DNA of 64,000 nt, from the IMG/VR virus record IMGVR_UViG_3300024268_000001. One strand, 5' to 3'. A program made the translations under genes and the position numbers. Positions 9,052 to 24,993 of this stretch are shown here, in pieces. Origin of the DNA: a virus (Duplodnaviria > Heunggongvirae > Uroviricota > Caudoviricetes). Under the pieces are notes generated by a model that saw nothing but the letters and a program-made list of their open reading frames with translations, was not told the origin of the DNA and made no database searches. The stretch's first letter is position 1, and each line of letters opens with the position of its first letter.

Positions 9052-10170
9052 TTACTTCTGCAGATAATCTTGAATAATCTTTTCATGATGGAAACCCATC
9101 TTCGGAAGATTACCGACACTGAACCATGCTGCATCCTTCGCATCGTCGCCGGCCTTAGCCATCTTCTTTTCCTTACCAGTAACCCTTACAGATACTGCTG
9201 TATCGATAATACGCAAGCGTGGGTCAAACATATGGCTATAGGTCTTAATCTGTTCGAACTTTTCAACTGGGAGGTTCAGAGACGTTTCTTCGCGGAATTC
9301 ACGCTGTGCTGCATGTTCCAAAGAAGCATCAGCCTTTTCAGGAAGTCCGGTTTCCTTATTGATATAATCAACCGGATTAAAGAATCCACCAGGAGTACAG
9401 AAGTAATTCATATACGGTGGTTTCCTACGGCGAATCAACAGAACTTCATCACCGGAAATACCGACAATATCAACCGTGTTTGCAAACTTTCCCCAACCCT
9501 GCTTCTTATAGTTTTCAATCCACTGCTTTTCAAGTTCAGTATAGTTGGTCGGATTCTGGTCATAAAGACTGTTTGTCTTAATCGGATTATCACGGTCATC
9601 CGTAAGTTCGCCTTCTTTTCGGATATATTCAAACACTGGCTTGCTAATCAGTGTCTTAACATCCTTATAGTGGCATTCCGGATTACGGTAGAAAATTTTA
9701 CGAGCTTCGCTACTGGAAATACCTTCAGTCTTAATACCCATGAGATAAGTACAATCATAACCGTACTTCGATTTCAATGCACCATCATTATCATCACGAG
9801 GAATAACCAAGAACTTATAGTTATTCAAAAGCTGATTACCGAACTTCCACTTTCCGTTAACCAAAGAATACCATTCGTCTTCGCCGATAACAATAGTAAT
9901 ATCCTTATCCTTGGTACCGAACTTATGGGAAATGAATTCATAAGTCCTGTTATTCTGAACGAGAATCGTAGGATTCAACTTTCGTGCAGTCATTGCGACC
10001 TTAACCATCGCGACACGTTCATCTACCGGAGTCTTATAATTCTTTTCGTCCGTATTGGAAACAAGAACATAAAGTTCATCGCCCTTACGAACCTTTTTGC
10101 TCACTGCCTTAATAATAGCTTCATGAGCGTGAGTAATCGGATCAAATGCACCACCAATCAAATACTTCAT
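9052..10170 (-). CDS. nadM: bifunctional NMN/NaMN adenylyltransferase - Nudix hydrolase (NadM-like)
   Basis: N-terminus 'GGAFDPITHAH' is the cytidylyltransferase (H/T)xGH motif. C-terminus carries the Nudix box 'LEHAAQREFREETSL'. Strong RBS 'aggaga' 6 nt upstream. Confidence 0.75.
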   Translation of the reverse strand: MKYLIGGAFDPITHAHEAIIKAVSKKVRKGDELYVLVSNTDEKNYKTPVDERVAMVKVAMTARKLNPTILVQNNRTYEFISHKFGTKDKDITIVIGEDEWYSLVNGKWKFGNQLLNNYKFLVIPRDDNDGALKSKYGYDCTYLMGIKTEGISSSEARKIFYRNPECHYKDVKTLISKPVFEYIRKEGELTDDRDNPIKTNSLYDQNPTNYTELEKQWIENYKKQGWGKFANTVDIVGISGDEVLLIRRRKPPYMNYFCTPGGFFNPVDYINKETGLPEKADASLEHAAQREFREETSLNLPVEKFEQIKTYSHMFDPRLRIIDTAVSVRVTGKEKKMAKAGDDAKDAAWFSVGNLPKMGFHHEKIIQDYLQK

Positions 10171-10172
10171 AA

Positions 10173-10565
10173 TTATCTCCTAATATTTCCACAAGATGTA
10201 TGAGCGTCACCCATAATATCGCCCTTGACTGTAATGTTTCCTGCATGGGTTTCAACATCACCTGAAACATCACCACCAATTTCGATATTACCTGCTGCAC
10301 TTTCAACATTACCCATGACGTCGCCAGAAACTGTAATGTTGTTTCCCTTACATACCTTATCTACGTCACCATAGACCGTAATGTTAATAACTTTATCTTT
10401 TACAGTAAAAGACTGATTACCAACAATAACAGTTTCACCCGAAATCTTAACAGAATCTGCGCAAATAGGTTCTTCAACCTTTTTACCGTTAATTTCAATA
10501 CTATCTGTGAGGCATAAACCTTTGAGAATATCTTCAGCCATAGTTTTCCTTATGTTTTTATACAA
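10173..10565 (-). CDS. bactofilin-like beta-helical repeat protein
   Basis: Repetitive 'NITVSGDVMGNVESAAGNIEIGGDVSGDVETHAGNITVKGDIMGD', i.e. a G-[DN]-[VI] periodicity typical of bactofilin/CcmA beta-helix. RBS 'aaggaaa'. Confidence 0.5.
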   Translation of the reverse strand: MYKNIRKTMAEDILKGLCLTDSIEINGKKVEEPICADSVKISGETVIVGNQSFTVKDKVINITVYGDVDKVCKGNNITVSGDVMGNVESAAGNIEIGGDVSGDVETHAGNITVKGDIMGDAHTSCGNIRR

Positions 10566-10577
10566 TATAGCAAAATT

Positions 10578-10596
10578 AAAGGGCTTTGTAAGCCCT
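10578..10596. terminator. intrinsic terminator hairpin
   Basis: Hairpin aagggctttgtaagccctt, with A/T runs on both sides. Confidence 0.6.
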
Positions 10597-10601
10597 TATA
10601 A

Positions 10602-10883
10602 TTATTTAATCGTATATGTTTGACCTTCGTACTCTACAACACGTTCTTTCTTAGGATTTTTAACTTCGACTGCGCACATCTTAAGAGAAAAACCACTTGT
10701 AGTTTCAGCTGTTACTTTTCGTCCAGCGTCATCATCTCGATATGCAAAGCAAGGACCCATACCAGTAATATCCGCTTTTTCATGGAGGTCGCTAAGAATC
10801 ATTATAGGAATCCCGAAAAAAAACAATCCCAAAATTAAAAACAAAACTGGAACTGTCCTATCTAATTTCCACATTATATCCAT
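10602..10883 (-). CDS. membrane protein (N-terminal TM)
   Basis: Hydrophobic segment 'VPVLFLILGLFFFGIPIMIL'. Confidence 0.45.
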   Translation of the reverse strand: MDIMWKLDRTVPVLFLILGLFFFGIPIMILSDLHEKADITGMGPCFAYRDDDAGRKVTAETTSGFSLKMCAVEVKNPKKERVVEYEGQTYTIK

Positions 10884-11293
10884 TATTTACCACCTTTAAT
10901 GAATGTTTCATATTTTGAAAGGGTATTACTGTCAATTTCCGGTTTTTTATGTGTGTGCACCAACCGATACAAAAAACAAGCAAATGTATACGGTGACTTT
11001 AAAATTGTTAAAATTAGTGCAAACAAATTATGTACTATTGCTATACCTGTAATAATTTCAGCTATTGCCAAACCTAGAAGTGCAGCACCGCTATTAATTA
11101 CAGACCATCCAAGATAGCATGCATACGAATGTTCATGCAAATAACAATTTTGTGCCGCACAAACAATTGTCTGGTTTTCATTGTACATTACAAAACAGGT
11201 TATAATGGATGCAATAATTATTGTTGGAAGCCAGTCAAAAAGAAACAGATTCAAGCTATCTGAATCGTTATCTGTCATATATTTCCAAGTCAT
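10883..11293 (-). CDS. multi-pass membrane protein
   Basis: Three or more hydrophobic segments (e.g. PTIIIASIITCFVMY, AALLGLAIAEIITGIAIV). ATGA overlap with the neighbouring gene. Confidence 0.5.
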   Translation of the reverse strand: MTWKYMTDNDSDSLNLFLFDWLPTIIIASIITCFVMYNENQTIVCAAQNCYLHEHSYACYLGWSVINSGAALLGLAIAEIITGIAIVHNLFALILTILKSPYTFACFLYRLVHTHKKPEIDSNTLSKYETFIKGGK

Positions 11294-11297
11294 TCAA

Positions 11298-11639
11298 TTA
11301 CCCCTTATGCTTAAAATATGTTCTGAACAACCATGGCGCTTTCTTAACCTTTTCGGCAAATTCTTCCATAGCTTTATATGCAAAAATTGCTCGATTATCG
11401 TCGTCAATCTTTACAGTATCTCCGTAATACAGTTCATTAAACAATGTGACAAAATCATCGGAATCCAAATACTTTCGAGTAGTATTATGTTTTTCATGAA
11501 TTTCGCCGAGAGTTTCGCGAACATGAACTGAACTGTTCTTGATAACCTGATTTGCCGCAAGATACTGGGCAAAATAAGCACCGATACCGATACCGATACC
11601 AATACTAACAATTACAAGTATTACAATAAAGACTCCCAT
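11298..11639 (-). CDS. membrane-anchored protein (N-terminal TM with GI repeats)
   Basis: N-terminus 'MGVFIVILVIVSIGIGIGIGAYFAQYLA'. Confidence 0.5.
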   Translation of the reverse strand: MGVFIVILVIVSIGIGIGIGAYFAQYLAANQVIKNSSVHVRETLGEIHEKHNTTRKYLDSDDFVTLFNELYYGDTVKIDDDNRAIFAYKAMEEFAEKVKKAPWLFRTYFKHKG

Positions 11640-11641
11640 AA

Positions 11642-12196
11642 TTACCCCTTCAGAATACCGGCGTGACGTGCCGCAGTAATTGTGGTCAAATCTGTTCCTT
11701 GTCCATCAGCAAAAGTAAGCTTCGTTGCGGAAAAAGAAACAGTATAATACGGATCCTGATTTGGCCTGCTGTTAGTCAACTCCAAAGCGCTGAGTCCACA
11801 AACCTTCACATTTTCATACTTGTACTGGCCCAAAGGCATATGCGGATTATGATTATAAATTTCAAGGGTAATCTTTGCGACTTCGTTTCCATTCTTCAAC
11901 AAATCAACCCAGAATGCGTAATCAACAATAGATGTACGCTTAAAGACGAGCTTAAAACTAAGGTTAGAAGAATCCGTAAATTCACGCATTGCATCAGATT
12001 CTCCCGGGTGACTTGCAGTAATTGCTGAACCTTGACTGGAATTAAGATGGTCGCTAAAATGACCACCCCATGCAGCAATCAAAGCATTATTGCTTGTAAA
12101 GCGAGATTCTGCATTTATATTGAAATCAAACTGTGCCTTTAAACCGTAACCGTCGGGATTTGCAACTTCTTTTTCAGGATAGACTTGATTGTTCAT
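11642..12196 (-). CDS. hypothetical protein
   Basis: 184-aa ORF. The promoter TTGACA-N18-TATATT and RBS 'aaaggaa' lie upstream at 12205-12250. Confidence 0.5.
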   Translation of the reverse strand: MNNQVYPEKEVANPDGYGLKAQFDFNINAESRFTSNNALIAAWGGHFSDHLNSSQGSAITASHPGESDAMREFTDSSNLSFKLVFKRTSIVDYAFWVDLLKNGNEVAKITLEIYNHNPHMPLGQYKYENVKVCGLSALELTNSRPNQDPYYTVSFSATKLTFADGQGTDLTTITAARHAGILKG

Positions 12197-12204
12197 ATTG
12201 GTTC

Positions 12205-12285
12205 CTTTTGTTTATGCATATAATATAGTAAAAATATTCATATTTGTCAACCTAAAAAATAAAAGGCTGACTTGCGTTAACCTTT
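12205..12285 (-). promoter_or_regulatory. sigma70-like promoter plus a degenerate copy of the conserved hairpin element
   Basis: Minus strand reads ggTTGACAaatatgaatatttttacTATATT. Upstream lies 'ggttaacgcaagtcagcc', a variant of the recurring GGTTGACGAAAGTCAGCC element. Confidence 0.5.
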
Positions 12286-12314
12286 TACCCTCACACATCC
12301 AATATTCTTTTTTC

Positions 12315-14243
12315 TTACTTCTTTGTTTCGGAGAACAAATCAATAAGAGTGTCCTTGCTCAACTGAGTCAAATCAAGTCCAACTTCAGAATCCTTATCGG
12401 AATCGTCAACAAATGTAAAGCCTGCTTTTTCAAGAATCGGCTTCAGGTTGACGAACGAACGACACTTATTCTTGAGGTTTTCAATATACACGTCTGCATA
12501 TTCATGATTTGGCACACGTCCACCACCTTGAGTAAGGTCCATGAGGAATACCTTATTGTCTACAATAAGTGCACACTGCTTTTCGCGTTCATTATCAACT
12601 GGAATGATAAATTCAGCGAGAACATTGTTCGGATCCACCTTTACATCCACACGCTGGCTATAATAAGCATCTTTCTTAAGCTTCTTCTCTTGACGAGCAA
12701 CGAAGAACTTAAACTGAGACTTAGGAGAACCATTGTACTGGTTTACCGATACCTTGCCATCAGGACACTTACAGTCAATGTAGAACAATTCTGTTGCTTC
12801 CGGACGAGCTGTAGTCATATCACCCGAGTAAATGATCTTATTCTCATGGTCCTTGTAACTTGCGTTCCAACCATAAGTACCTCCATTAATGTCATACATA
12901 TGAAGGTCAAAATCCTGGGTTCCCCATTCTCCACGCCAATAGATACCAACAACGTTGTGGTCGTCGGACATATCAACGGAAGTGCCAAACGGATAATTAC
13001 CGATGAAGTTCTTTTCAGAAGTCGGCATTGTCAGATTGACATGCTGAGGATAACGAACAGTACATGCCTTATCCTTGATAGACTTGACCAACGAATCTTC
13101 AAGAAGATTGTAGACAACCATCAAGTAGGAATTCAATTCCTGATTAGGCACCGGAGCATCCTTACGAACCCACATCTTGCCGTTACGAATTACATACATC
13201 TTTCCGCTAGCATTCTGGAGCTTAGCGAGAATACCCTGCATGAGCGTGACCTTCTTGAAATTGGTGATTTCACCCTTTGCAAGACGTTCACGAACTTCGT
13301 CCAGCTTCTTGTGTTCAGAAAGTACAGTTTCCCAGAAACCTGCAGTAAACGGCTTATGGTCAGTAACAGCCAAACGACGGATATGGTTAATAACCGAGGA
13401 GTTTGTCTTCTGTCCAACAACAACGGCCTTAAGCTTTGCTGCGGCCTTTCTGAAAGCTTCATTCTTGAAAACTGCCGGCTTACCGTCAACCTTTTGGTTC
13501 TTGAACGCTAAGAATAACGGCTTGAAACGATAGAAAATCGAAGCGAGAGCGTGTAGCTGCTCATCCGACAACTTCGTAAAGTCGACAGTTTCTGCCTTTT
13601 CCTTAATGGCCTTGATAGTCTTTCGGTCCTTGATAAGCATGGCGCTGCCAGTTGCCTTAAAGACGAAATAACGTAACATGTTGAACGGGTCCTTGCCGTA
13701 GATACCTGTTGCATCCATCAATGCTATGGAAGCTTCCTTATTCTTGATGGAATCGACGTCGAGTCCATAAGTATTGAAACGCTTATCTTGCGTAATGAAG
13801 TTCACAAGGACATTAATGGTTTCAGTTTCAAGGGCAATCCCGGACTGGAGCATCTTTACACAGCGTGTATAAATTTCCTCGTCAGTCGCAGGCATAATAA
13901 CCTTGAATGAATTGTACGGAATTTCTACGTCCGGAGCGTTGTTTGGAATATACGCATCGCCCGTATAATTTGTGCCATAAGTAGAGGCATAATGAAGAAG
14001 TTGATCTACCAACAGTTCAAAACGCGTCTTGGACGTAATGTCAGACCACTTAGCATAAAACGTCTTATTGTAATTGGTCTTAGCTTCAGCATTCACCCAG
14101 TCAAGGGCAAGCTTCGAGCAACAGTCGGGATGAATAATCCAACCATACTTTGCTGATTCTGCGTTAACCTCTTCAAAAGAGCGCTTAGAGTTACCTTCTG
14201 CCTTAGGCATGACATTGAACATTGTAATCAACTTAAGATTCAT
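12315..14243 (-). CDS. large hypothetical protein (642 aa)
   Basis: Long uninterrupted ORF with RBS 'gaggaaaaatt'. No motif recognised. Confidence 0.6.
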   Translation of the reverse strand: MNLKLITMFNVMPKAEGNSKRSFEEVNAESAKYGWIIHPDCCSKLALDWVNAEAKTNYNKTFYAKWSDITSKTRFELLVDQLLHYASTYGTNYTGDAYIPNNAPDVEIPYNSFKVIMPATDEEIYTRCVKMLQSGIALETETINVLVNFITQDKRFNTYGLDVDSIKNKEASIALMDATGIYGKDPFNMLRYFVFKATGSAMLIKDRKTIKAIKEKAETVDFTKLSDEQLHALASIFYRFKPLFLAFKNQKVDGKPAVFKNEAFRKAAAKLKAVVVGQKTNSSVINHIRRLAVTDHKPFTAGFWETVLSEHKKLDEVRERLAKGEITNFKKVTLMQGILAKLQNASGKMYVIRNGKMWVRKDAPVPNQELNSYLMVVYNLLEDSLVKSIKDKACTVRYPQHVNLTMPTSEKNFIGNYPFGTSVDMSDDHNVVGIYWRGEWGTQDFDLHMYDINGGTYGWNASYKDHENKIIYSGDMTTARPEATELFYIDCKCPDGKVSVNQYNGSPKSQFKFFVARQEKKLKKDAYYSQRVDVKVDPNNVLAEFIIPVDNEREKQCALIVDNKVFLMDLTQGGGRVPNHEYADVYIENLKNKCRSFVNLKPILEKAGFTFVDDSDKDSEVGLDLTQLSKDTLIDLFSETKK

Positions 14244-14590
14244 AATTTTTCCTCATTAAAAGTGTTAAAGCGAGAAGTAAGTATTTTGCCTAAATTATAA
14301 TGATATAGGAACATCCTTTGCTTTAACGGTGTTAAATATAGTAAATTGTTTGTGTTTTGTAAACCCTATTTTTAAAGGTTTTTTAATGCTTTTTTCCAAG
14401 CCTTTACTTTCTTCTTGGATTCTTTGCTCAGTTTTAATCCGAAAATATCCATTAGTGCATTGGCAGTATCAACACCTGCCAAACGACTTTCGAGTTCTTT
14501 CTTCTTTAACGAATTTTCCGTTTCCAATGAACTTCCCATACATGTATAATATAGCAAGTGTATTTTATTTTGTAAACCCCTAAATATAAA

Positions 14591-14622
14591 AAAGTAGAGC
14601 CGGTTGACTCTACTTTTAAATT
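14591..14622. terminator. intrinsic terminator
   Basis: Hairpin aagtagagccggttgactctactt. On the minus strand it is followed by ttttttatattt, downstream of the patatin gene. Confidence 0.65.
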
Positions 14623-14634
14623 AAAACCCGAATA

Positions 14635-15504
14635 TTATCGATTTTTTACAAAATCTAAAATATCCTTTTTAACTGATTCGTAGTAGTCATCCCAGATTTT
14701 CATAACTAAATTAATAGTTTTATCTGATACATCATCCATTTTTATCTTTTTTGTATAATTCGGAGATGCATTGAAAACATACTTATCGCCGAGAATGGCT
14801 TGTGCTTCATAAATTGGTGATTTTGAACTTCTTGCTACCCAATCTCCAATCATATATTCTGCCCATCCTAACAATGTTTTATTTCCATGTTCTGTATTTG
14901 GTGTATTCATTCCAGTATTAAAATTTAAAAGTTTAAGATTTCGATTGCCTTGTTTAAATTGACCAGCAATAACTATATCGGCAGGGTTATTTGCCCAACA
15001 GCCACCGTCCATATAAGAGTTTCCATCTTTTTCTATAACATCAAAATATGTAGGTGCTGCTGTTGATGTAAGTACAGCAAATGCCTTTGTTGTATCTTTA
15101 TCACCTAAATCCCACACTTTTTCTACAGAAGCACCATTCATAAATGTTGTTGTAATATAGATAGGTTTTTTCCAATCACTAACTTTACCTTTAAGTTTTT
15201 CTTCTAAAATTTTTTTAAGATTTGTATTATCATATGTTGGACACGTTGGTTTAAGTCGTTTATACCAGGAATTTTTTGTAAAAATTTTCTTTAAATTATC
15301 TTGGTATAATTTAAATATATCATGTGCACTCATACCTTCATTCATACATGCAGCAACTATTGAACCCGTAGAAGTACCAGTATATGCTGATACATAATCA
15401 CCTAATTTTTTACCTAGATCTTGTTCCAATCTGCACATAAATGCTAAAGGTCCCATAGCCAAGGCTCCACCACCTTCAATACTTAAACACAATTGTTTGC
15501 CCAT
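14635..15504 (-). CDS. patatin-like phospholipase
   Basis: Oxyanion-hole 'SIEGGGALAMG', nucleophile elbow 'GTSTG' and catalytic Asp motif 'YMDGGCWANNP'. Very AT-rich codon usage. RBS 'aggaga'. Confidence 0.8.
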   Translation of the reverse strand: MGKQLCLSIEGGGALAMGPLAFMCRLEQDLGKKLGDYVSAYTGTSTGSIVAACMNEGMSAHDIFKLYQDNLKKIFTKNSWYKRLKPTCPTYDNTNLKKILEEKLKGKVSDWKKPIYITTTFMNGASVEKVWDLGDKDTTKAFAVLTSTAAPTYFDVIEKDGNSYMDGGCWANNPADIVIAGQFKQGNRNLKLLNFNTGMNTPNTEHGNKTLLGWAEYMIGDWVARSSKSPIYEAQAILGDKYVFNASPNYTKKIKMDDVSDKTINLVMKIWDDYYESVKKDILDFVKNR

Positions 15505-15535
15505 AAAATTCTCCTAATATAATTTTATATTATAT

Positions 15536-16054
15536 TTATATAATTATATTATTCCGAATTTTTTCTATAAGTATATCCAACTCTTTTCTTTTTAAAATAA
15601 TAACATTATTTTTTATCATGCATTCTTGTTTTTCCAGTTGTAATTCTTTTGTAAATGGATTTATTAATTGATTATTATCATTAAAGAAAAAATCTCCTTT
15701 AACTTCATAAAATTTACCATTTATAATAAAATCTGGCTTATATTTATGTTCTTGTTCTTCTTTAATATAAGTAAACGTAATTTTTGGATGATATTCAAAC
15801 ACATTCTTACTGGACTGTAATGCTTCATATAATTCATATTCCCAGTGAGAATCGAAATATATATCATTATAATAAAAACCATATACTGTATGTGATTGTG
15901 TATTTGGATTTTGACCGGGATTTTTATAACCAGTTTTTTCATAATATGTTTGCTGACATTTAGCAAATGATTCAGGATTCGACCAATTATGGTAATACCC
16001 TGTTTTTCTAAAATATTCTTCAGAACGTTGTTTTAAATGTTCTGGATTTTTCAT
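15536..16054 (-). CDS. tandem-repeat protein (about 23-aa repeat 'xxYFxKTGYYHNWSNPES')
   Basis: Two repeat units follow the annotated ATG. A further 1.5 units continue in frame upstream to the TAA of the zinc-finger ORF at 16160. The true start or boundary is therefore uncertain. Confidence 0.5.
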   Translation of the reverse strand: MKNPEHLKQRSEEYFRKTGYYHNWSNPESFAKCQQTYYEKTGYKNPGQNPNTQSHTVYGFYYNDIYFDSHWEYELYEALQSSKNVFEYHPKITFTYIKEEQEHKYKPDFIINGKFYEVKGDFFFNDNNQLINPFTKELQLEKQECMIKNNVIILKRKELDILIEKIRNNIII

Positions 16055-16157
16055 ATTATGAGTATAACCAGTTTCTTTAAAATATGTATCTATACATTTT
16101 TGTCGTGAATCTGGATTAGACCAATTATGATAATATCCGGTTCTTTGAAAATATGTA
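15930..16157 (-). repeat. coding tandem repeat, about 69-bp units (about 3.5 copies)
   Basis: Repeated DNA 'ggattagaccaattatgataatatccggtt' / 'ggattcgaccaattatggtaataccctgtt'. Encoded units: TYFQRTGYYHNWSNPDSRQKCID, TYFKETGYTHNMKNPEHLKQRSEE, YFRKTGYYHNWSNPESFAKCQQ, TYYEKTGYKNPGQNPN. Confidence 0.7.
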
Positions 16158-16159
16158 TT

Positions 16160-16492
16160 TTATGTTCGAAGCCTAACATCTTGTTTCCATTCATCAGTAT
16201 GAGAATGCCATGTTTCTGATGCAGATAATTTTGCTTCTTCACTTTGTCTTGCACACAATGTACAACAATAACGTCTATAACCGTATGTAAAATTTATAAA
16301 TTTTGTTTCTTTACCACAATTTTTACAAATATTTTCATCAGGTTCTTTTAAATATTTATCATAATATTCACGAGAATGTATATTGTGCTTAACTAATAAA
16401 TGTGTAGAAATTCCCAATGATTTTATTTGTTTATGACAGAATTTACATTCTATTATATCATGTCTTACTATATTAAATTTACTTATACTCAT
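16160..16492 (-). CDS. zinc-finger / zinc-ribbon protein
   Basis: 'CKFCHKQIKSLGISTHLLVKH' is a C-x2-C-x12-H-x4-H (C2H2-like) finger. 'CKNCGK...YCCTLC' is a second Cys4 ribbon. The ORF ends with TAA, in frame with the downstream repeat ORF. Confidence 0.55.
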   Translation of the reverse strand: MSISKFNIVRHDIIECKFCHKQIKSLGISTHLLVKHNIHSREYYDKYLKEPDENICKNCGKETKFINFTYGYRRYCCTLCARQSEEAKLSASETWHSHTDEWKQDVRLRT

Positions 16493-16635
16493 TAAAAAAC
16501 TCCTACCTAATTCTTGCCCAATTAGATAGGAGATAATACGATAACGTATTTTTCAAATTTTTCTACTATTAAAAGGGCAAGTTTTAATAATACTTATATA
16601 GTATTTATAATATTTGCCCGTTTTATTTTGTAATA

Positions 16636-17115
16636 TTACGCTAAATTTTTCAATAATGCGGTTTCAATCTCGAAATCACTCATGGCCTTTTTATATTCAA
16701 AACTATCTTCATGTCCAGAAAGTCTCGAATATGGAACTCCCATAGAATCCCAGATTTTATGCTGCATAACTATCCAGCCATACGCAGCATAAAAATTTTC
16801 CCATCTATTAAGAAATTCAATCAGCTCATTTAGCTTAGATTTTGTCAGCCATTCCAACATTTTAAAGACATTATCTTTATAGTCAAAAATCATTATTGAA
16901 CATCTGTCTTTAATGGGCATAAGAGTACATGCGACCATAATTTCAAACTTTTCATCATCTTCGTACCAACTGAATTCAACCTCAAATCGATTATCCTTAT
17001 CGCGAAGACAAATACTATCATGGGTTTTAGAAGTATTTACCCTCATGTAATAATCATTCGGTTTAATCCGAAGAATATAGTTTTGAAAATGTTGGAATGT
17101 ATATGCTTCAGACAT
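16636..17115 (-). CDS. hypothetical protein
   Basis: 159-aa ORF in the AT-rich island. Confidence 0.5.
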   Translation of the reverse strand: MSEAYTFQHFQNYILRIKPNDYYMRVNTSKTHDSICLRDKDNRFEVEFSWYEDDEKFEIMVACTLMPIKDRCSIMIFDYKDNVFKMLEWLTKSKLNELIEFLNRWENFYAAYGWIVMQHKIWDSMGVPYSRLSGHEDSFEYKKAMSDFEIETALLKNLA

Positions 17116-17202
17116 TAATTCTTACCTAAAAGCTTATTAAAAGCATTTACAAGCTTACTGATTTCACCTTCATCGCTTGTAGGTTCATAATCAATACTTG
17201 TA

Positions 17203-17562
17203 TCATAAACCACGCGACGCTGAACTGGGGGCTTTCTTCATTTTTTCCTTATGTTCATTCATAAGTTTTTCAGCAAGTTCATATGACGGAATATAAGAAC
17301 CAACATCCCATGAAGCATCTTTTGAACAAATATGAGGTTTAGATTCTTCTTTCCAAATATGACTATCACGGTATCTTAAATATCGTTCCATATTATAGGT
17401 CAAGCGAAACCAATTCTTCGAACCGCTATTTATCTTACGATATTCAACAACAAACCATGACGGGTCTCTGTTTACAATACTTGGAGCAACATCAAAATCG
17501 AACGTCGGATATTCATATGTACCGAGTTCTATAATACGATATTCATAAAGCGATTTTTCCAT
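17203..17562 (-). CDS. hypothetical protein
   Basis: 119-aa ORF. ATGA-type junction with the ligase gene. Confidence 0.45.
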   Translation of the reverse strand: MEKSLYEYRIIELGTYEYPTFDFDVAPSIVNRDPSWFVVEYRKINSGSKNWFRLTYNMERYLRYRDSHIWKEESKPHICSKDASWDVGSYIPSYELAEKLMNEHKEKMKKAPSSASRGL

Positions 17563-18716
17563 TAGAACACATATCCTTCACGAGATTTACCGGTTGTAAC
17601 ATTACGCAAGATAGTCGGAATAATTTCACCAGCCTTCGTAATAATAACTTCATGACCGATTTCGATGCCCATATATTCAAGCATGTCAATATTGCACATA
17701 TTTGCACGCTGAACTGTAGTTCCGCAAAGTTCAACAGGTTCAACTACTGCAACCGGAGTCAAATTGCCATTCTTGATAGACCATTCAATGTTAATGAGCT
17801 TGGTCTGAGCAAGAGAATACTTCGGCTTGAGTGCAATCGAGAATTCCGGCAAATAATTGGTTTCAAGATCTTCATAATCAATCAAAGACGTCTTCCAAAC
17901 AAGACCGTCAATCTGATAATCACGTTCTTCATGCCAAATCTGGTCCATAAGAGCGACAGCCTTTTCACCGTTCATGGTTTTAAGGTCGTAAATCTTGTAG
18001 TCAACAACATCAAAACCCTGGTTTTTCATCCAATCAAGCATATCAGACTGAAGTCGGAAATGACGCTTGGTGTTAGAGGCATAGCGAGCTTCATAAACCT
18101 TGATATTAAGCTTTTCACAATCTGCACCGTCGAGATGCTTCATAATACCAGAAGCAGCATTTCGGCAGTTCTTATACTTCGGGAAATACTTTTCCTTAAC
18201 GGACTTGTAAAGCAAAATTTCGCCGCGAATAGTTCCTGTAAAATCCTTATCGACTTTCTTGACGAGACCATTCATCTTAAGAATATTATTGGTAATGTCG
18301 TCACCGTATGTACCATCACCACGGGTAGTACCCTGAACGAACTTTCCATCGACGTATTTAAGCGCAATAGAGCAGCCATCGAGCTTCAAAGGAGCAACGA
18401 CATATTCATGACCATTCATACGGCACTTATTGAACCAGACATCCATTTCTGGAGCCGTATTGGCCTTATTCTGAGAACCCATGATAATATCATGCTTGAC
18501 TTTTTCAAAACCTTCAGTATGGTCCTTACCAACTTCCTTCAAAACATCAGAATCAGGATATTTAGTCTTCAGTTCATCCCAGAGTGCATCAAATTCAATG
18601 TCGCTCATGATAGGAGAATCGGAATTATAATAGGCATCTTGTGCCTGACGGATTTTTGCTTCAAGTTCGTTCTTATTCATGTGATACAATATAGTAAAAA
18701 ATATAGGCTTTGTCAA
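17562..18716 (-). CDS. ligA: NAD-dependent DNA ligase (LigA adenylation + OB domains, short form without BRCT)
   Basis: N-terminal Ia-like 'DAYYNSDSPIMSDIEFDALWDEL'. Motif I 'PLKLDGCSIALKY'. 'TTRGDGTYGDDIT' matches LigA 'ATRGDGttGEDIT'. Confidence 0.8.
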   Translation of the reverse strand: MTKPIFFTILYHMNKNELEAKIRQAQDAYYNSDSPIMSDIEFDALWDELKTKYPDSDVLKEVGKDHTEGFEKVKHDIIMGSQNKANTAPEMDVWFNKCRMNGHEYVVAPLKLDGCSIALKYVDGKFVQGTTRGDGTYGDDITNNILKMNGLVKKVDKDFTGTIRGEILLYKSVKEKYFPKYKNCRNAASGIMKHLDGADCEKLNIKVYEARYASNTKRHFRLQSDMLDWMKNQGFDVVDYKIYDLKTMNGEKAVALMDQIWHEERDYQIDGLVWKTSLIDYEDLETNYLPEFSIALKPKYSLAQTKLINIEWSIKNGNLTPVAVVEPVELCGTTVQRANMCNIDMLEYMGIEIGHEVIITKAGEIIPTILRNVTTGKSREGYVF

Positions 18717-18735
18717 CCTATATTTTAGTTAAAGA
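18700..18735 (-). promoter_or_regulatory. sigma70-like promoter
   Basis: Minus strand reads ggTTGACAaagcctatattttttacTATATTgtatcacATG. Confidence 0.55.
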
Positions 18736-18984
18736 GTTAAGTATTATAAAATCATTCACAAATTGCATATTCTGAAATTTGTCATCGAGGTCATACTTTT
18801 TTCCATCCATTTCGACGATTATATCATGTATACCCATTAAATGTGAACTTACGTTATCTTTAACAACTATACCGCCAGCTCTATCATGATGAAGTGTCAT
18901 ACGAATAATTTTTTCAATATGACATTCAATATCTTCTTCATGTAGGCTTTTATATTTGAGTATTACCGGAATCATATTTATCAT
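18718..18984 (-). CDS. hypothetical small protein
   Basis: 88-aa ORF. Confidence 0.4.
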   Translation of the reverse strand: MINMIPVILKYKSLHEEDIECHIEKIIRMTLHHDRAGGIVVKDNVSSHLMGIHDIIVEMDGKKYDLDDKFQNMQFVNDFIILNSLTKI

Positions 18985-19360
18985 CTAATGCATGTTCGAT
19001 TTCATAAGCTTCCGTTTGATTCTTTACATACATTTGGGCTTTCTGAAAATCTTTTCCGTATTTTTGGTATAAATCGTAAAGCATATCTGTAGCGACATCC
19101 ATACCAGGATGTCTAGTATAAAACTCGTTCAATCTATAATTCGGTTTTAAATTAGTTTCAATGATATATGACATTCCGTGTTCCCACATATTTTCTATAC
19201 GAAAACCATTTCCAATCATTGCCTGTGCATATTCATACGCATGGTCACCAATCATTTTATGGTTTTCGACTATTTCTTTATAATAGCAACAACGCATTAC
19301 GTCAGTTACGTAATCTTTCCAGTCTTCTTTAGTTTTAAAATAATCTAAAAAACTAAGCAT
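18950..19360 (-). CDS. hypothetical protein
   Basis: 136-aa ORF. Confidence 0.45.
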   Translation of the reverse strand: MLSFLDYFKTKEDWKDYVTDVMRCCYYKEIVENHKMIGDHAYEYAQAMIGNGFRIENMWEHGMSYIIETNLKPNYRLNEFYTRHPGMDVATDMLYDLYQKYGKDFQKAQMYVKNQTEAYEIEHALDDKYDSGNTQI

Positions 19361-19361
19361 A

Positions 19362-19718
19362 TTATAAATTGTCCAAAGAATTTAATGTGTTAAAATACTC
19401 GATAAAAGCTCTTCGTTGGTCATCATCACGTAATTTAAATTTTTGAGTACCAATATAGACAGTTTTTGATATATCAATATTCTTTACATCAATTTGAGAC
19501 TTAGACTTTCGGCATTCACCCCAAATTTTATCACATTTACGTTTTGACGGTGGAGCCGGAGTAAAATAAAATCGACTTTTGAAATGAATTTCTAAAGACT
19601 TAGGTGAACCTGAACCAGCTAACTTTTCTCGCCATCGTCTAAATACATCATTCCAATCATATTCCCAGCTAATATCGGAAACCTTATAAATATGTCCATC
19701 TATTTTCAGCTCTACCAT
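19362..19718 (-). CDS. hypothetical protein
   Basis: 118-aa ORF. Confidence 0.45.
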   Translation of the reverse strand: MVELKIDGHIYKVSDISWEYDWNDVFRRWREKLAGSGSPKSLEIHFKSRFYFTPAPPSKRKCDKIWGECRKSKSQIDVKNIDISKTVYIGTQKFKLRDDDQRRAFIEYFNTLNSLDNL

Positions 19719-19719
19719 A

Positions 19720-20619
19720 TTAAAGTCCGGTTTGTCTTCCAGAGAAATTAACAGAACCTCTACCTTCTACTGTAAGGTAATCATCATAACTGCGCCATTC
19801 GTTTTCCTTTCCTGCATGACGAACGAAAGAAATATCACCAGTAAAATCCTTAATTACTGTAGCACACCAGTCTTTCTTCTTAAATTCTTCAACGGCATTC
19901 TTATCAAGCAACGGTTCATCAAGCGGATAAACACATACCATACCCGCATCTGCACAGAACTGTCCAATTTCTTCCTTTGTATCTAAATCGAATACAGTAC
20001 AAGACCAATCGCCATAAAGCGTATCAGTGCACATTCCAGACTTGATAGATTCAGCCTTGGAAACCCAATCATGGTCATCATTTACGATATAGCAAGGATC
20101 CGTGATAATAATATCCTTATGCTCGAAATGCATTGTTCTCGGATGTTTAATTTGATATTCTCGACGAAGAATAAATGCAATCAAATTCCAATAATCATGA
20201 GCAAATCCAAGTAATCGTTTCTTTCGCCATGTTTCAGCGGTATAATTTTTAGCTTTTTCTTTTGTACCGTCTGCACGGGTAATAAACATGTCATCATATT
20301 CCATATCATATGCAATATTCCAGTCAAGCTTTTGACACAGATTAGCCCTACGCTGGCATTCTTCATAACCGAGCTTATAGTGATATTTCTTGATATGTAA
20401 TTTCTTAAATTCAGAGCATTTAATTTTACGAAGTTCGTCATTTCGGTTAACCCAATAACGCATATTTTCTACTTCGCGCTTAGCTTTAAGAACCTCTTCA
20501 AGTTCTGCGCCTTTAAGCAAGCCCTTATCTGCCATACAGAACTTACACATAAAATTCTTAACATCCTTAACGCCTTTGGCACAATATTCGCCACCACATA
20601 CAATACACTTTGCTGTCAT
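19720..20619 (-). CDS. hypothetical protein with N-terminal Cys4 cluster
   Basis: N-terminus 'CIVCGGEYC...CKFC'. 299 aa. Promoter element at 20651-20680. Confidence 0.5.
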   Translation of the reverse strand: MTAKCIVCGGEYCAKGVKDVKNFMCKFCMADKGLLKGAELEEVLKAKREVENMRYWVNRNDELRKIKCSEFKKLHIKKYHYKLGYEECQRRANLCQKLDWNIAYDMEYDDMFITRADGTKEKAKNYTAETWRKKRLLGFAHDYWNLIAFILRREYQIKHPRTMHFEHKDIIITDPCYIVNDDHDWVSKAESIKSGMCTDTLYGDWSCTVFDLDTKEEIGQFCADAGMVCVYPLDEPLLDKNAVEEFKKKDWCATVIKDFTGDISFVRHAGKENEWRSYDDYLTVEGRGSVNFSGRQTGL

Positions 20620-20650
20620 TAAAAACTCCTTTTATAATTTTGTAATATAG

Positions 20651-20680
20651 AAAAAGGGGAGACTTTCGTCAACCCCTATA
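20651..20680 (-). promoter_or_regulatory. conserved promoter/hairpin element, copy 1
   Basis: Plus strand reads aaaaaggggaGACTTTCGTCAAcccctat. On the minus strand this gives GGTTGACGAAAGTC with flanking complementary A/G and C/T runs. Confidence 0.5.
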
Positions 20681-20881
20681 ATTCGGGTACATTCTGCAAG
20701 TGTCCCAAATATTTGCCTGTTCTTCATCTGACAAATAAATTGTCTGGTCTTCCGGAACTGACTTTCCTTCCAATCGATTCATAAATGAATTACGCATTTT
20801 TAAAATAGCATCTTGTCGTTCATCAATGCCATTGATACACATGTCGAATTTTTCAGCTAACTGTTGTGCTTTGGATTTCAT
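20669..20881 (-). CDS. hypothetical small protein
   Basis: 70-aa ORF. Its first ~12 nt overlap the conserved promoter/hairpin element at 20651-20680. Confidence 0.4.
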   Translation of the reverse strand: MKSKAQQLAEKFDMCINGIDERQDAILKMRNSFMNRLEGKSVPEDQTIYLSDEEQANIWDTCRMYPNYRG

Positions 20882-20893
20882 TCTTGTTCTCCA

Positions 20894-21322
20894 TTAATAA
20901 AGTTCTTTTGCAAAAAATTCTTTAGTAGCACTTTGCATAGCAACGGCTTTCCAATCCGATACAGTTTTGGTATTCATCCATTTATCCATATCATCAATCA
21001 TACATTGAGTTTTAGTCTTCAAACCAACAGACTTCAACAATTCACGTTGACGCCATTCATTAAAGTCTCGCTTTTTAGCATCTTGTTTTGCTCTGTATGC
21101 CAAAACCGCGGCTTCACCTTGTCTCTTTCGTCTTTCTCGTTTTTCTACACCAGTTTCCGTATCTGACAAAAGGTCATCGAATTCTTCAATCAGCTTTCCA
21201 AGCTTGTAATCTACACTATTTCGATAATCTTTTTGGAAAATGCATTCTAACATGCCTTGCATGTACAGAATAACAGCACCTATAAGAAGGACGCAAGCTG
21301 CAGAAATAATGATTGTTGCCAT
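20894..21322 (-). CDS. membrane protein (N-terminal TM)
   Basis: N-terminus 'MATIIISAACVLLIGAVILYM'. Confidence 0.5.
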   Translation of the reverse strand: MATIIISAACVLLIGAVILYMQGMLECIFQKDYRNSVDYKLGKLIEEFDDLLSDTETGVEKRERRKRQGEAAVLAYRAKQDAKKRDFNEWRQRELLKSVGLKTKTQCMIDDMDKWMNTKTVSDWKAVAMQSATKEFFAKELY

Positions 21323-21346
21323 GATGAACTCCTCTTGTTTATGTTC

Positions 21347-21386
21347 ATAATATAGAAAAAGGGCCGACTTTCGTCAACCCTTTATT
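21347..21386 (-). promoter_or_regulatory. conserved promoter/hairpin element, copy 2
   Basis: Plus strand reads cataatatagaaaaagggccGACTTTCGTCAAccctttatt. Confidence 0.5.
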
Positions 21387-21410
21387 ATTATAGGAGAAAA
21401 TATATACTTA

Positions 21411-24913: not shown

Positions 24914-24943
24914 TTTAAATCTCCATGTTTACGTGGTAAATAT

Positions 24944-24977
24944 AAAAAAAGAGGTGACTTTCGTCAACCCCTTTTTA
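24944..24977 (-). promoter_or_regulatory. conserved promoter/hairpin element, copy 3
   Basis: Plus strand reads aaaaaaagaggtGACTTTCGTCAAcccctttttaat. On the minus strand this is TTGACG - N19 - TATATT, then RBS, then ATG. Confidence 0.55.
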
Positions 24978-24993
24978 ATAATTATTTACAGGC

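What the first reader, a model, noticed from the sequence alone, without database searches (positions are those of the whole stretch)
14590..17200. AT-rich moron-like island: zinc finger - tandem-repeat protein - patatin-like phospholipase operon
GC drops sharply in this region. It is bounded by a terminator (14591-14622) and a promoter-like region (16500-16630). It encodes a C2H2/Cys4 zinc protein, a protein built of about 23-aa 'YFxKTGYYHNWSNPES' repeats, and a canonical patatin (GGGxxxG, GTSTG, DGGxxxNNP). Patatin-like lipases are effectors in bacterial anti-phage systems (e.g. CBASS CapV) and toxins. A phage-borne copy with its own regulators could act in lysis, superinfection exclusion, or as a decoy or anti-defence factor. 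The compositional deviation suggests recent horizontal acquisition.
Basis: partly seen in the sequence, partly recalled or inferred. Interest (0 to 1): 0.7.

Follow-up and report, generated by a model that had tools for sequence, protein, structure and literature searches.

The report
Homing endonuclease beside a phage lipase
The AT-rich "island" is a 1.1-kb selfish homing-endonuclease gene, now broken by one stop codon, inserted just upstream of a lipase gene that this group of large rumen phages has long carried and probably took from Fibrobacter; it is not a three-gene lipase operon.

Summary
All genes here are on the minus strand. The "zinc-finger protein" (16160-16492) and the "repeat protein" (15536-16054) are one 318-codon reading frame, cut by a single in-frame TAA (16160-16162). 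Intact homologs at 95-99% identity have CAA (Gln) there.

The joined protein is a DUF7487-type free-standing homing endonuclease. It has two zinc fingers, four 23-aa repeats and a T7-endonuclease-I-like nuclease with all catalytic residues.

With its structured leader, this cassette (~15505-16655) is absent from syntenic relatives. It is ~95% identical in an unrelated GC-rich phage, again directly upstream of patatin. It is the only compositionally deviant part (GC 0.25, GC3 0.11).

The patatin gene (14635-15504) is resident. It holds the same position in relatives that lack the cassette, and its 3-mer composition is ordinary. Ser45 and Asp166 are invariant in 93 homologs.

Its closest solved relatives are the CBASS lipases CapV and CapE (TM 0.84-0.86). 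However, it scores below the CBASS equivalog cut-off, lacks the GGGx[R/K]G basic residue and has no cyclase partner. Its nearest cellular relatives are chromosomal Fibrobacter genes.

Verdict: an ordinary mobile element next to an unstudied, mildly interesting phage lipase family.

The parts
14590..17115 (-). Whole stretch covered by this report: terminator, patatin gene, endonuclease cassette and the resident 159-aa gene
14590..14617 (-). Intrinsic-terminator-like hairpin (12-bp stem followed by a T-run), 18 nt after the patatin stop codon
14635..15504 (-). Patatin-like Ser-Asp lipase, 289 aa. Motifs: GGG at 11-13, G43-T-S45-T-G47, D166-G-G. A resident, syntenic gene.
15511..15540 (-). 5' region of patatin supplied by the cassette. 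TATAAATA (15533-15540), which resembles a T4 late promoter, overlaps the endonuclease stop codon. The Shine-Dalgarno sequence AGGAG lies at 15511-15515.
15536..16492 (-). Free-standing homing-endonuclease gene (DUF7487 type), 318 codons. Zn fingers at residues 16-36 and 56-80; nuclease motifs E218, P-D254, E263-x-K265.
16160..16162 (-). In-frame TAA at codon 111. Intact relatives have CAA (Gln) here, so this is a single C-to-T change.
15893..16159 (-). Four tandem 23-aa (69-nt) repeats of the form TYFxxTGYxHNxxNPxxxxKxxx. Presumed DNA-binding modules of the endonuclease.
   Evidence: family D5
16493..16635 (-). Conserved leader of the endonuclease gene, with three hairpins and TATAAATA at 16602-16609. 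98% identical among copies, and 93-97% identical upstream of an unrelated HNH-like ORF in L005.
16500..16532 (-). 13-bp hairpin followed by T6. Its 3' arm contains the Shine-Dalgarno sequence (AGGAG) of the endonuclease gene, 7 nt before the ATG. It looks like a terminator or a ribosome-binding-site trap.
16636..17115 (-). Resident 159-aa gene of unknown function, syntenic in relatives. The cassette is inserted just after its stop codon, and a remnant of it travels with the cassette in L001-L003.

Best explanation
The window is part of a large T4-like phage from rumen or gut samples, probably infecting Fibrobacter.

Shown:
- The AT-rich stretch is a free-standing homing-endonuclease cassette of about 1.15 kb: a structured leader plus a 318-codon gene encoding two zinc fingers, four 23-aa repeats and a T7-endonuclease-I-like PD-(D/E)XK nuclease.
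- It sits between a resident 159-aa gene and a resident patatin gene.
- It replaces the native ~42-nt spacer and supplies a new 5' region for patatin, with a TATAAATA late-promoter-like motif and a Shine-Dalgarno sequence.
- This copy carries a CAA-to-TAA nonsense change at codon 111.

Inferred:
- In mixed infections the enzyme would cut endonuclease-less genomes in or near the conserved patatin region, and repair would copy the cassette in ('intronless homing').
- The nonsense change was recent, so this copy most likely no longer makes a nuclease.
- The hairpin that holds the Shine-Dalgarno sequence and ends in a T-run keeps endonuclease expression low.
- Patatin itself is a stand-alone cytoplasmic Ser45/Asp166 acyl hydrolase inherited within this phage clade and derived from a chromosomal Fibrobacter lipase. 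It is probably made late and hydrolyses host membrane lipids, helping lysis or release or remodelling lipids. This last step is a low-confidence guess.
For: One gene, not two:
- Both parts are in the same frame with a single TAA between them.
- The joined frame passes the Pfam DUF7487 gathering score (35.3 against 27) with the match spanning the stop.
- PHROG 3339 'homing endonuclease', E = 6e-14.
- Intact 318-aa homologs exist at 99% and 95% identity, with Gln at the stop position.
- dN/dS is 0.06-0.11 and the stop is a single transition.
- The four T7 endonuclease I catalytic residues are present.

Insertion and mobility:
- L008-L010 are syntenic at 75-84% DNA identity and lack window 15499-16634.
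- L001-L003 carry the cassette at 90-100% identity with sharp edges on both sides. That phage has GC about 0.5, a ligase only 55% identical in protein and a patatin only 76% identical.
- L001-L003 also keep a remnant of the 159-aa gene at the cassette edge.
- DUF7487-type genes abut patatin in three independent arrangements.
- The cassette is the lowest-GC gene in the window and is deviant by 3-mers.

Regulation:
- Hairpins in the leader.
- 11 of 14 same-strand TATAAATA motifs lie 5-50 nt upstream of the start of an ORF of at least 100 aa.
- A UvsY homolog is present in the window.
- T4 precedents for all of these features are reviewed in PMC2988022.

Patatin:
- Syntenic and widespread: 394 homolog clusters and 44 IMG/VR loci, many on contigs of 200-430 kb.
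- The catalytic dyad is invariant in 93 sequences.
- Homologs at 43-53% identity occur in about 33 Fibrobacter species, in housekeeping contexts.
- In the tree, the phage sequences apart from two divergent IMG/VR outliers (L055, L060) form one clade beside the Fibrobacter clades.
Against: - No cleavage site or homing event has been observed. Mobility is inferred only from comparing genomes.
- Whether the TAA is a true mutation, a minority variant or an assembly error cannot be checked without reads.
- The late-promoter reading rests on motif position only.
- In T4 the late promoter lies inside the hairpin that traps the ribosome-binding site. Here it lies about 70 nt upstream, so the regulatory logic may differ.
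- The role of patatin is a guess. There is no lysis gene next to it, no conserved partner gene and no signal peptide. The missing Arg/Lys in the GGGx[R/K]G motif may mean the substrate is not a phospholipid.
- The host assignment rests on homologs in MAGs and on one neighbour-joining tree rooted at its midpoint.
Confidence: 0.78

Rival explanations
1. The region is a moron-like operon acquired as one unit, in which a zinc-finger protein and a repeat protein regulate or partner a patatin toxin or effector.
For: - All the ORFs are co-oriented, and the region is closed by a terminator.
- GC is low across 15-17 kb.
- The endonuclease and patatin are also adjacent in L001-L004.
Against: - The two 'regulators' are one frame split by a stop, with intact 318-aa homologs elsewhere.
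- The joined protein has a nuclease domain with a complete catalytic set.
- Patatin occupies the same syntenic slot without the endonuclease in L008-L010 and L005.
- In L001 the cassette is 95% identical but patatin is only 76% identical and GC-rich.
- Patatin composition is ordinary.
- No partner gene is conserved across 60 loci.
Confidence: 0.04
2. The TAA is not a real inactivating mutation. It could be a sequencing or assembly error, a minority allele, or a leaky stop, and the phage makes a full-length active endonuclease.
For: - It is a single-base difference from intact copies.
- The rest of the gene shows strong purifying selection, with 14 synonymous against 5 non-synonymous codon differences to L004.
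- The catalytic residues downstream of the stop are intact.
Against: - TAA is used as the real stop of both this gene and patatin.
- There are no tRNA or suppressor genes in the window.
- ORFs tile the strand under the standard code.
- Three of the five non-synonymous differences to L004 cluster within 11 codons of the stop, which looks more like real local change than a single miscall.
- Decay of fixed homing-endonuclease genes is expected from what is known of these elements.
Confidence: 0.15
3. The phage patatin works like a CBASS CapV effector or as a decoy of one. Either it is a lipase switched on by a cyclic nucleotide, used by the phage for timed lysis or to exclude competing phages, or it soaks up host cGAMP as an anti-CBASS device.
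For: - The best sequence and fold matches are CapV and CapE: PDB E = 1e-13, PADLOC CBASS effector model E = 1e-39 over nearly the full length, TM 0.84-0.86.
- K129 and D135, which align with the cGAMP contacts K149 and D159 of AbCapV, are invariant. They lie in the most conserved block, NGxSVEKVWDLGD.
Against: - The score is below the NCBIfam CBASS_lipase cut-off (115.7 against 200).
- The F147 loop is 5 residues shorter, and the C-terminal half, which carries the other ligand contacts, shows no detectable sequence similarity to CapV.
- No cyclase was found among the 85 other ORFs in the window.
- No neighbour gene is conserved in phage or Fibrobacter loci. The Fibrobacter homologs sit among housekeeping genes.
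- An intact catalytic dyad argues against a pure sponge.
- Plant patatin is almost as close in fold (TM 0.78-0.80).
Confidence: 0.1
4. The truncated 110-aa zinc-finger product has been kept because it is useful. It could bind DNA at the former target site or at the leader, acting as a repressor or as protection against related endonucleases.
For: - The N-terminal ORF keeps its start codon, Shine-Dalgarno sequence and both zinc motifs.
- T4 I-TevI also acts as an autorepressor (PMC2988022).
Against: - No other copy with this truncation was found. The relatives P0001-P0003 are full length.
- The mutation looks very recent.
- The DNA-binding repeats lie downstream of the stop.
Confidence: 0.05

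Closest known systems
Free-standing homing endonucleases of T4-like phages (seg and mob genes; 'intronless homing')
   Same: - A small AT-rich gene inserted between conserved genes.
- Present or absent among close relatives.
- Nearly identical copies in divergent genomes.
- A promoter for the downstream gene embedded at its end.
- A hairpin over its own ribosome-binding site.
- A late-promoter-like motif.
- Decay by a nonsense mutation.
   Basis: review PMC2988022.
   Different: - The nuclease is neither GIY-YIG nor HNH. It is a T7-endonuclease-I-like PD-(D/E)XK domain fused to two zinc fingers and four 23-aa repeats (Pfam DUF7487, for which no paper was found).
- The late-promoter motif lies upstream of the hairpin that traps the ribosome-binding site, not inside it.
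- The target site is unknown.
T7 endonuclease I (PDB 1m0d, 1fzr) / Pfam Phage_endo_I
   Same: The catalytic core aligns (E = 3e-4), with E218, D254, E263 and K265 matching E20, D55, E65 and K67 (the T7 residue numbers are from my own knowledge).
   Different: - Only about 55 residues align, and the score is below the Pfam gathering threshold (23-25 bits against 29.1).
- T7 endonuclease I resolves DNA junctions and has no zinc-finger or repeat domain.
CBASS phospholipase effectors CapV and CapE (PDB 8zr9, 9kh6, 9iom)
   Same: - Patatin fold with a Ser-Asp dyad.
- Best fold match (TM 0.84-0.86, 21-23% identity) and best profile match (PADLOC E = 1e-39).
- Cytoplasmic, with no signal peptide.
- Equivalents of the ligand contacts K149 and D159 are conserved.
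   Different: - 289 aa, against 320-364 aa.
- Lacks the Arg/Lys of the GGGx[R/K]G motif.
- Below the NCBIfam equivalog cut-off.
- The F147 loop is shortened.
- No CD-NTase or other CBASS gene nearby in the phage or in Fibrobacter.
Chromosomal patatin-like protein of Fibrobacter species (uncharacterised)
   Same: - 43-53% identity over the full length and the same length.
- The same GGGALGIG, GTSTG, NGxSVEKVWD and DGG motifs.
- In the tree, the phage sequences apart from two divergent IMG/VR outliers (L055, L060) form a clade beside the Fibrobacter clades.
   Different: - The Fibrobacter copies are cellular genes set among housekeeping genes: a sugar transporter, an LpxL-like acyltransferase, SecA and Ile-tRNA synthetase.
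- Their function is also unknown.
Patatin genes of Wolbachia phage WO
   Same: These are the only patatin hits in 50,697 deposited phage records.
   Different: - Only 25-28% identity.
- They lie in a temperate phage's eukaryotic association module, which is a different clade and context.

Membership tests
Patatin-like phospholipase (Pfam PF01734) | Score above the Pfam gathering threshold | tested here: met
   72.8 bits against a cut-off of 27.7; E = 5.4e-20; residues 7-178
Patatin-like phospholipase (Pfam PF01734) | G-x-S-x-G nucleophile motif and D-G-[A/G] catalytic Asp, conserved on alignment | tested here: met
   G43-T-S45-T-G47 and D166-G-G are invariant in 59 phage and 34 Fibrobacter sequences
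Patatin-like phospholipase (Pfam PF01734) | G-G-G-x-[K/R]-G oxyanion and phosphate-binding motif | tested here: not met
   GGG is present, but the basic residue is absent: GGGALAMG here and GGGALGIG in the family. The motif definition is from PMC12480259.
Patatin-like phospholipase (Pfam PF01734) | Patatin alpha/beta fold | tested here: met
   AF2 model with pLDDT 90.9. Foldseek TM 0.78-0.86 to CapV, CapE and plant patatin.
CBASS effector CapV/CapE | Score above the curated equivalog cut-off (NCBIfam NF041079 CBASS_lipase) | tested here: not met
   115.7 bits against a cut-off of 200, although the PADLOC CBASS phospholipase effector model gives E = 1e-39
CBASS effector CapV/CapE | Encoded next to a CD-NTase (cyclase) in one operon | tested here: not met
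   - No cyclase family was listed among the 85 other window ORFs: all 10 PADLOC families were shown, and 25 of 31 Pfam families.
- No neighbour is conserved in 60 phage loci.
- Neighbours in Fibrobacter are housekeeping genes.
- The PADLOC scan of 142 neighbour proteins listed only the top 25 families, none of them a cyclase. A rare single case is therefore not excluded.
CBASS effector CapV/CapE | Conserved cyclic-dinucleotide contact residues (AbCapV F147, K149, D159, E207, R279) | tested here: inconclusive
   K149 and D159 align with the invariant K129 and D135. The F147 loop is 5 residues shorter. E207 and R279 could not be aligned, because the C-terminal profile finds no CapV.
CBASS effector CapV/CapE | Activation and filament formation on binding a cyclic nucleotide | not testable with these tools
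   Needs biochemistry
Free-standing homing endonuclease (DUF7487 / PD-(D/E)XK type) | Family profile match and a complete nuclease catalytic motif | tested here: met
   - DUF7487 at 35.3 bits against a cut-off of 27 for the joined frame.
- PHROG 3339, E = 6e-14.
- E218, P-D254 and E263-x-K265 are conserved and align with T7 endonuclease I.
Free-standing homing endonuclease (DUF7487 / PD-(D/E)XK type) | Present or absent at one locus among close relatives, and near-identical copies in unrelated genomes | tested here: met
   - Absent from the syntenic L008-L010.
- Present at 98% identity in L004.
- Present at about 95% identity in L001-L003, whose ligase is 55% identical in protein.
Free-standing homing endonuclease (DUF7487 / PD-(D/E)XK type) | Intact open reading frame in this genome | tested here: not met
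   In-frame TAA at codon 111, window 16160-16162
Free-standing homing endonuclease (DUF7487 / PD-(D/E)XK type) | Site-specific cleavage of the endonuclease-less allele, and biased inheritance in mixed infections | not testable with these tools
   Needs enzyme assays and mixed infections
Phage moron | A self-contained transcription unit that is absent from related phages and compositionally foreign | tested here: not met
   - True only for the endonuclease cassette.
- Patatin is syntenic in relatives and is not deviant by 3-mers (30% of windows are at least as deviant), though its GC3 of 0.176 is third lowest of 75 genes.

The most novel reading that the evidence does not exclude
The phage patatin, and the Fibrobacter chromosomal enzyme it descends from, may be a cyclase-less offshoot of the CapV lipases that is still controlled by a ligand. 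The invariant NGxSVEKVWDLGD block coincides with CapV's cGAMP-contact loop and would be the sensor. Large rumen phages would then use the enzyme late in infection as a signal-timed membrane-disrupting factor, either for lysis or to counter or exploit host cyclic-nucleotide immunity. Separately, a conserved ~120-nt structured leader shared by two unrelated endonuclease types (DUF7487 and HNH-like) may be a portable expression-control module for selfish nucleases.
Probability: 0.12. Interest if true: 0.75.

Novelty: new member of a known kind. Interest (0 to 1): 0.35.

Why it matters
- It corrects an attractive but wrong reading. There is no three-gene 'lipase operon'. There is a selfish endonuclease parked beside a conserved gene, which is the usual pattern in T4-like phages.
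- It assigns a likely biological role to Pfam DUF7487, as a zinc-finger, repeat and T7-endonuclease-I-like homing endonuclease. It also identifies an intact copy (P0001) and an empty-site sequence (L008) that could be tested directly.
- It reveals an unstudied lipase family that is conserved in many large (100-430 kb) rumen phages. The family is derived from Fibrobacter and is structurally closest to CBASS effectors. That gives a host clue for these uncultured phages and a candidate late-acting factor that works on membranes.

Tried and rejected
- Megablast of 14000-17600 and of 10000-22000 against 50,697 phage records found nothing. This phage lineage has no close deposited relative.
- An Rfam scan of the region found only a chance snoRNA hit at E = 0.49.
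- I looked for further copies of the endonuclease leader. There are none elsewhere in the window, and among 99 loci it appears only in L001-L005.
- Co-conversion of patatin together with the cassette is rejected for L001. Identity drops from about 95% to 60-75% just inside patatin, and that allele is GC-rich.
- I looked for a conserved partner gene of patatin and found none.
- The C-terminal half of the patatin profile was searched against the PDB to align CapV ligand contacts. There was no CapV hit.
- Stop-codon recoding (TAA read as Gln) is rejected. TAA ends both genes, there are no tRNAs, and ORFs tile normally.
- Other low-GC genes (39917-40699, 41096-41668 and others) were tested as possible further endonucleases. 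None had a Pfam hit.
- The literature search found no paper on DUF7487, on patatin encoded by jumbo phages (four papers hold both words, none about that), or on Fibrobacter jumbo phages.


Full report
**Observation**

All credible ORFs between 12 and 20 kb lie on the minus strand. GC drops to 0.28 in 15001-17000, against 0.36 for the whole window. The minus-strand sequence gives this order:
- a 159-aa ORF (17115-16636)
- a 143-nt non-coding stretch
- a 110-aa ORF with C-x2-C...H-x4-H and C-x2-C...C-x3-C motifs (16492-16160)
- a 172-aa ORF (16054-15536)
- a 289-aa patatin ORF (15504-14635)
- a hairpin with a T-run at 14617-14590

However, 16492 and 16054 are in the same phase. Translating 16495-15533 gives one 318-codon frame with a single internal TAA at 16160-16162. 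The 23-aa repeats (TYFxxTGYxHNxxNPxxxxKxxx, four units, 69-nt period; family D5) begin right after that stop, upstream of the ATG the ORF finder used.

**What the upstream "two proteins" are**

- With Gln in place of the stop, the joined frame passes the Pfam DUF7487 gathering threshold (35.3 bits against 27). The match covers residues 64-163, so it spans the stop.
- It also matches PHROG 3339 "homing endonuclease" (E = 6e-14, residues 36-150) and PHROG 945 "endonuclease".
- A search of 5.8 billion proteins found intact 318-aa homologs at 99% (P0001) and 95% (P0002) identity, and a 319-aa homolog at 61% (P0003).
- At the stop position these homologs have Q, Q and K. At the DNA level the difference from the intact copies is CAA to TAA.
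- Invariant columns include the four Cys of the second zinc motif, and S215, E218, P253-D254-F255 and K265.
- A profile of the family aligns with T7 endonuclease I (1m0d, E = 3e-4). E218, D254, E263 and K265 fall on the catalytic Glu, Asp, Glu and Lys of that enzyme (the T7 residue roles are from my own knowledge).
- dN/dS is 0.06 against L004 and 0.10 against L001. The gene was therefore under purifying selection until very recently, and the nonsense change is young.
- No usable ribosome-binding site precedes the internal ATG at 16054 (read directly from the sequence).

**It is an insertion, and it moves**

- The look-up of encoding contigs returned L008-L010 (contigs of 20-149 kb). These align with window 5147-27157 at 75-84% DNA identity.
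- Their gene order is ligase, 148 aa, 159 aa, patatin, 234 aa, 638 aa. Homology runs up to the stop of the 159-aa gene (window 16635) and resumes at the patatin start (15498).
- Window 15499-16634 is therefore extra. In L008 a 42-nt spacer stands in its place.
- L004 is a close relative: 94% identical in the 159-aa gene, 98% in the endonuclease and 97% in patatin. It has the same layout with an intact endonuclease.
- L001-L003 come from a very different phage. Locus GC is 0.46 with flanks around 0.5, the ligase is 55% identical in protein, and patatin is 76% identical with GC 0.495.
- They nevertheless carry the cassette at 90-100% identity from about window 16655 to 15505, with sharp drops on both sides. 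In L001 it forms a GC 0.22-0.30 trough.
- At the upstream edge of the cassette, L001-L003 retain two fragments of the window-type 159-aa gene. The element therefore reached that phage from a donor organised like this window.
- An HMM of the family finds further DUF7487-type genes directly abutting patatin in two other arrangements. One is a 234-aa version immediately downstream in L008-L010 and L018. The other is a 533-aa version immediately downstream in L056-L058.
- Conserved patatin is thus a recurrent landing place for this endonuclease family. This is the pattern described for the free-standing seg and mob endonucleases of T4, called "intronless homing", where the cleavage site lies in a nearby conserved gene (PMC2988022).

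**Composition, tested formally**

| Feature | GC | GC3 | Rank or deviation |
|---|---|---|---|
| Endonuclease gene | 0.249 | 0.11 | lowest of 75 genes; z about -2.7 against 900-1100-nt windows; 5% of windows as deviant by 3-mers |
| Patatin | 0.316 | 0.176 | GC z about -1; GC3 third lowest of 75; 30% of windows as deviant by 3-mers |
| 159-aa gene | 0.327 | 0.306 | 28% of windows as deviant by 3-mers |

**Regulatory anatomy**

- The 143-nt leader folds into three hairpins (MFE -35.8 kcal/mol, z = -4.7).
- The third hairpin (16532-16500, 13 bp, followed by T6) contains the gene's AGGAG in its 3' arm, 7 nt before the ATG.
- The leader is 98% identical among all endonuclease copies, which is more conserved than the coding sequence.
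- It is also 93-97% identical over 119-138 nt directly upstream of a different ORF in L005. That 319-aa protein has an HNH-like H-H...N...H motif by eye but no Pfam hit.
- TATAAATA, the T4 late-promoter consensus (my own knowledge), occurs 14 times on the gene strand. Eleven of these lie 5-50 nt upstream of the start of an ORF of at least 100 aa.
- The window encodes a UvsY homolog, and related contigs encode a T4-type portal protein.
- One TATAAATA lies in the leader (16602-16609). Another overlaps the endonuclease stop codon (15533-15540), 29 nt before the patatin ATG, and is followed by AGGAG.
- The cassette therefore supplies patatin's 5' region. The same junction is present in L001 and L004.
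- Relatives without the endonuclease (L008, L005, L017, L050) have their own TATAAATA in a small hairpin 24-34 nt upstream of patatin.
- Promoters for the downstream gene embedded in the endonuclease cassette, and hairpins over the endonuclease's ribosome-binding site, are both documented for T-even endonucleases (PMC2988022).
- In T4 the late promoter lies inside such a hairpin. Here it does not, so I infer only that the hairpin and T-run keep endonuclease expression low.

**The patatin**

- It matches Pfam PF01734 at E = 5e-20.
- 394 homolog clusters were found, the listed ones at 56-99% identity and about 289 aa long.
- There are 44 loci in IMG/VR, many on contigs of 200-420 kb. There are further contigs of 359 and 431 kb, the 359-kb one with a T4-type portal gene nearby.
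- Deposited phage genomes hold only distant (25-28%) homologs, in Wolbachia phage WO.
- S45 and D166 are invariant in 59 phage and 34 Fibrobacter sequences, as are K129 and D135. The glycine-rich motif is GGGALGIG, without the Arg/Lys of GGGx[K/R]G.
- An AlphaFold model (pLDDT 90.9) best matches the CBASS lipases: 9kh6 (TM 0.86), AbCapV 8zr9 (0.84) and CapE (0.77-0.79). Plant patatin follows at 0.78-0.80, with PlpD at 0.64 and ExoU and VipD at 0.4-0.5.
- Sequence searches agree. The best PDB hits are all CBASS lipases (1e-13 to 3e-6), and the PADLOC CBASS phospholipase effector model gives E = 1e-39 over residues 7-284.
- Membership of the CapV family nevertheless fails on several tests:
  - NCBIfam CBASS_lipase scores 115.7 bits against a cut-off of 200.
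  - No cyclase was found among the 85 other window ORFs.
  - No neighbour gene is conserved across 60 phage loci.
- For the cGAMP contacts of AbCapV (F147, K149, D159, E207, R279; PMC12480259), the result is mixed. K149 and D159 align with the invariant K129 and D135. The F147 loop is five residues shorter. The C-terminal half could not be aligned by sequence.

**Origin and host**

- A scan of one genome per GTDB species found the family at 43-53% identity in about 33 Fibrobacter species representatives, on contigs up to 650 kb.
- It also found closer copies (56-77%) on contigs binned to various rumen MAGs, which are probably phage contigs.
- In Fibrobacter the gene sits among housekeeping genes. 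The neighbours vary and include a GH8 hydrolase, a polysaccharide deacetylase, a sugar transporter, Ile-tRNA synthetase, SecA and a GH5 cellulase. In six loci there is an LpxL-like acyltransferase. None is a cyclase.
- In a neighbour-joining tree of 93 sequences, all phage sequences apart from two divergent IMG/VR outliers (L055, L060) form one clade beside two Fibrobacter clades.
- Patatin GC usually tracks its own genome, from 0.32 to 0.55.
- The simplest reading is an old capture of a Fibrobacter lipase by phages of that host, followed by vertical descent and some exchange among phages.

**Mechanism and confidence**

- Shown: one endonuclease gene with a premature stop; its presence or absence across relatives and its near-identity across unrelated phages; its boundaries; the residency and conservation of patatin.
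- Inferred with good support: homing as the mode of spread; recent inactivation of this copy.
- Inferred weakly: control of expression by the hairpin and T-run; late expression of patatin.
- Guess: patatin hydrolyses host membrane lipids late in infection, for lysis or release or for lipid remodelling.
Each is given with its odds in the rival list.

**Novelty and score**

Free-standing homing endonucleases next to conserved phage genes are well known. This one adds a poorly described nuclease architecture (DUF7487) and a shared portable leader. The patatin family is unstudied, widespread in rumen megaphage-sized genomes and CapV-like in fold, but nothing here shows an unusual mechanism. I score interest at 0.35 and file it as a new member of a known kind.

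Noticed in passing
window 16493-16635; L005:4172-4308: The ~120-140-nt structured leader of the DUF7487 endonuclease is 93-97% identical upstream of an unrelated 319-aa ORF in another phage. That ORF has an HNH-like motif by eye but no Pfam hit, and sits right after the ligase gene. The leader is more conserved than the endonuclease coding sequence, and may be a portable control module for selfish nucleases.
   Followed up: partly
window minus strand: 26320, 35905, 44432, 44790, 47088, 48677, 51184, 53077, 54222 and others: TATAAATA (the T4 late-promoter consensus) lies 5-30 nt upstream of many gene starts, concentrated in 44-54 kb. There are 18 matches against 9.9 expected, 14 of them on the gene strand. 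Together with a UvsY homolog at 32063-32479, this suggests T4-like late transcription.
   Followed up: partly
window 3726-3762, 12218-12286, 14330-14366, 14543-14579, 18684-18720, 20622-20685, 21327-21390, 24917-24980, 42632-42695, 55525-55561: A repeated intergenic motif reads, on the gene strand, as TTGAC(G/A) or TTTACA, then about 17 nt, then TATA(T/A)T. It is often preceded by a GC-rich hairpin, so it looks like terminator-plus-promoter units. Two copies lie just downstream of the patatin terminator, ahead of a 61-aa ORF and the 642-aa gene.
   Followed up: no
L008:10982-11686 (also L009, L010, L018); L056:4899-6500 (also L057, L058): Two other DUF7487-type genes sit immediately downstream of patatin in other phages. 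One is a 234-aa form whose C-terminus looks like a Vsr/DUF559-type nuclease by eye. The other is a 533-aa form. An 81-nt stretch of the 234-aa gene is 80% identical to the zinc-finger region of the window's endonuclease (16290-16369).
   Followed up: partly
L005:7982-9253: An IS605-type TnpB (OrfB_IS605, Cas12f-like TNB) gene lies on the opposite strand, two genes upstream of patatin, in a 45-kb phage contig.
   Followed up: no
window 46199-47065: A 288-aa ORF is built of degenerate ~30-nt repeats. On the plus strand they read TTCGCCTTCACCTTC..., which on the gene strand encodes Glu/Gly-rich acidic repeats. It is among the most 3-mer-deviant parts of the window.
   Followed up: no
window 39917-42070: A second low-GC block (GC 0.27-0.31, GC3 0.17-0.23) holds four ORFs of 132-260 aa with no Pfam hit. 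It could be another recent acquisition.
   Followed up: partly
window 35971-37122: There is a strong positive AT skew (+0.24) over one 383-aa minus-strand ORF. This would fit a T-rich, hydrophobic membrane protein. One window ORF matched Pfam MFS_1, but I did not establish which one. An MFS_1 gene also lies 3.4 kb from patatin in L011-L013, and a sugar transporter abuts the Fibrobacter patatin.
   Followed up: no
window ~55600-61800: The coding strand switches to plus, with a run of small ORFs (100-130 aa), and the GC and AT skews change sign. This marks a divergent transcription module.
   Followed up: no
window, whole: The phage encodes membrane-associated proteins of host type (LemA, Band 7/flotillin, MFS transporter), two Cpn10 homologs and an M16 peptidase. 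One ORF matches a PADLOC CARF/PD-DExK/AAA model at E = 1e-10; I did not identify which ORF.
   Followed up: no
L071:4040-4936 and five other Fibrobacter loci: In six Fibrobacter species the patatin homolog is directly preceded, on the opposite strand, by an LpxL-like lipid A or lysophospholipid acyltransferase gene. This hints at a deacylation and reacylation role in membrane lipids.
   Followed up: no
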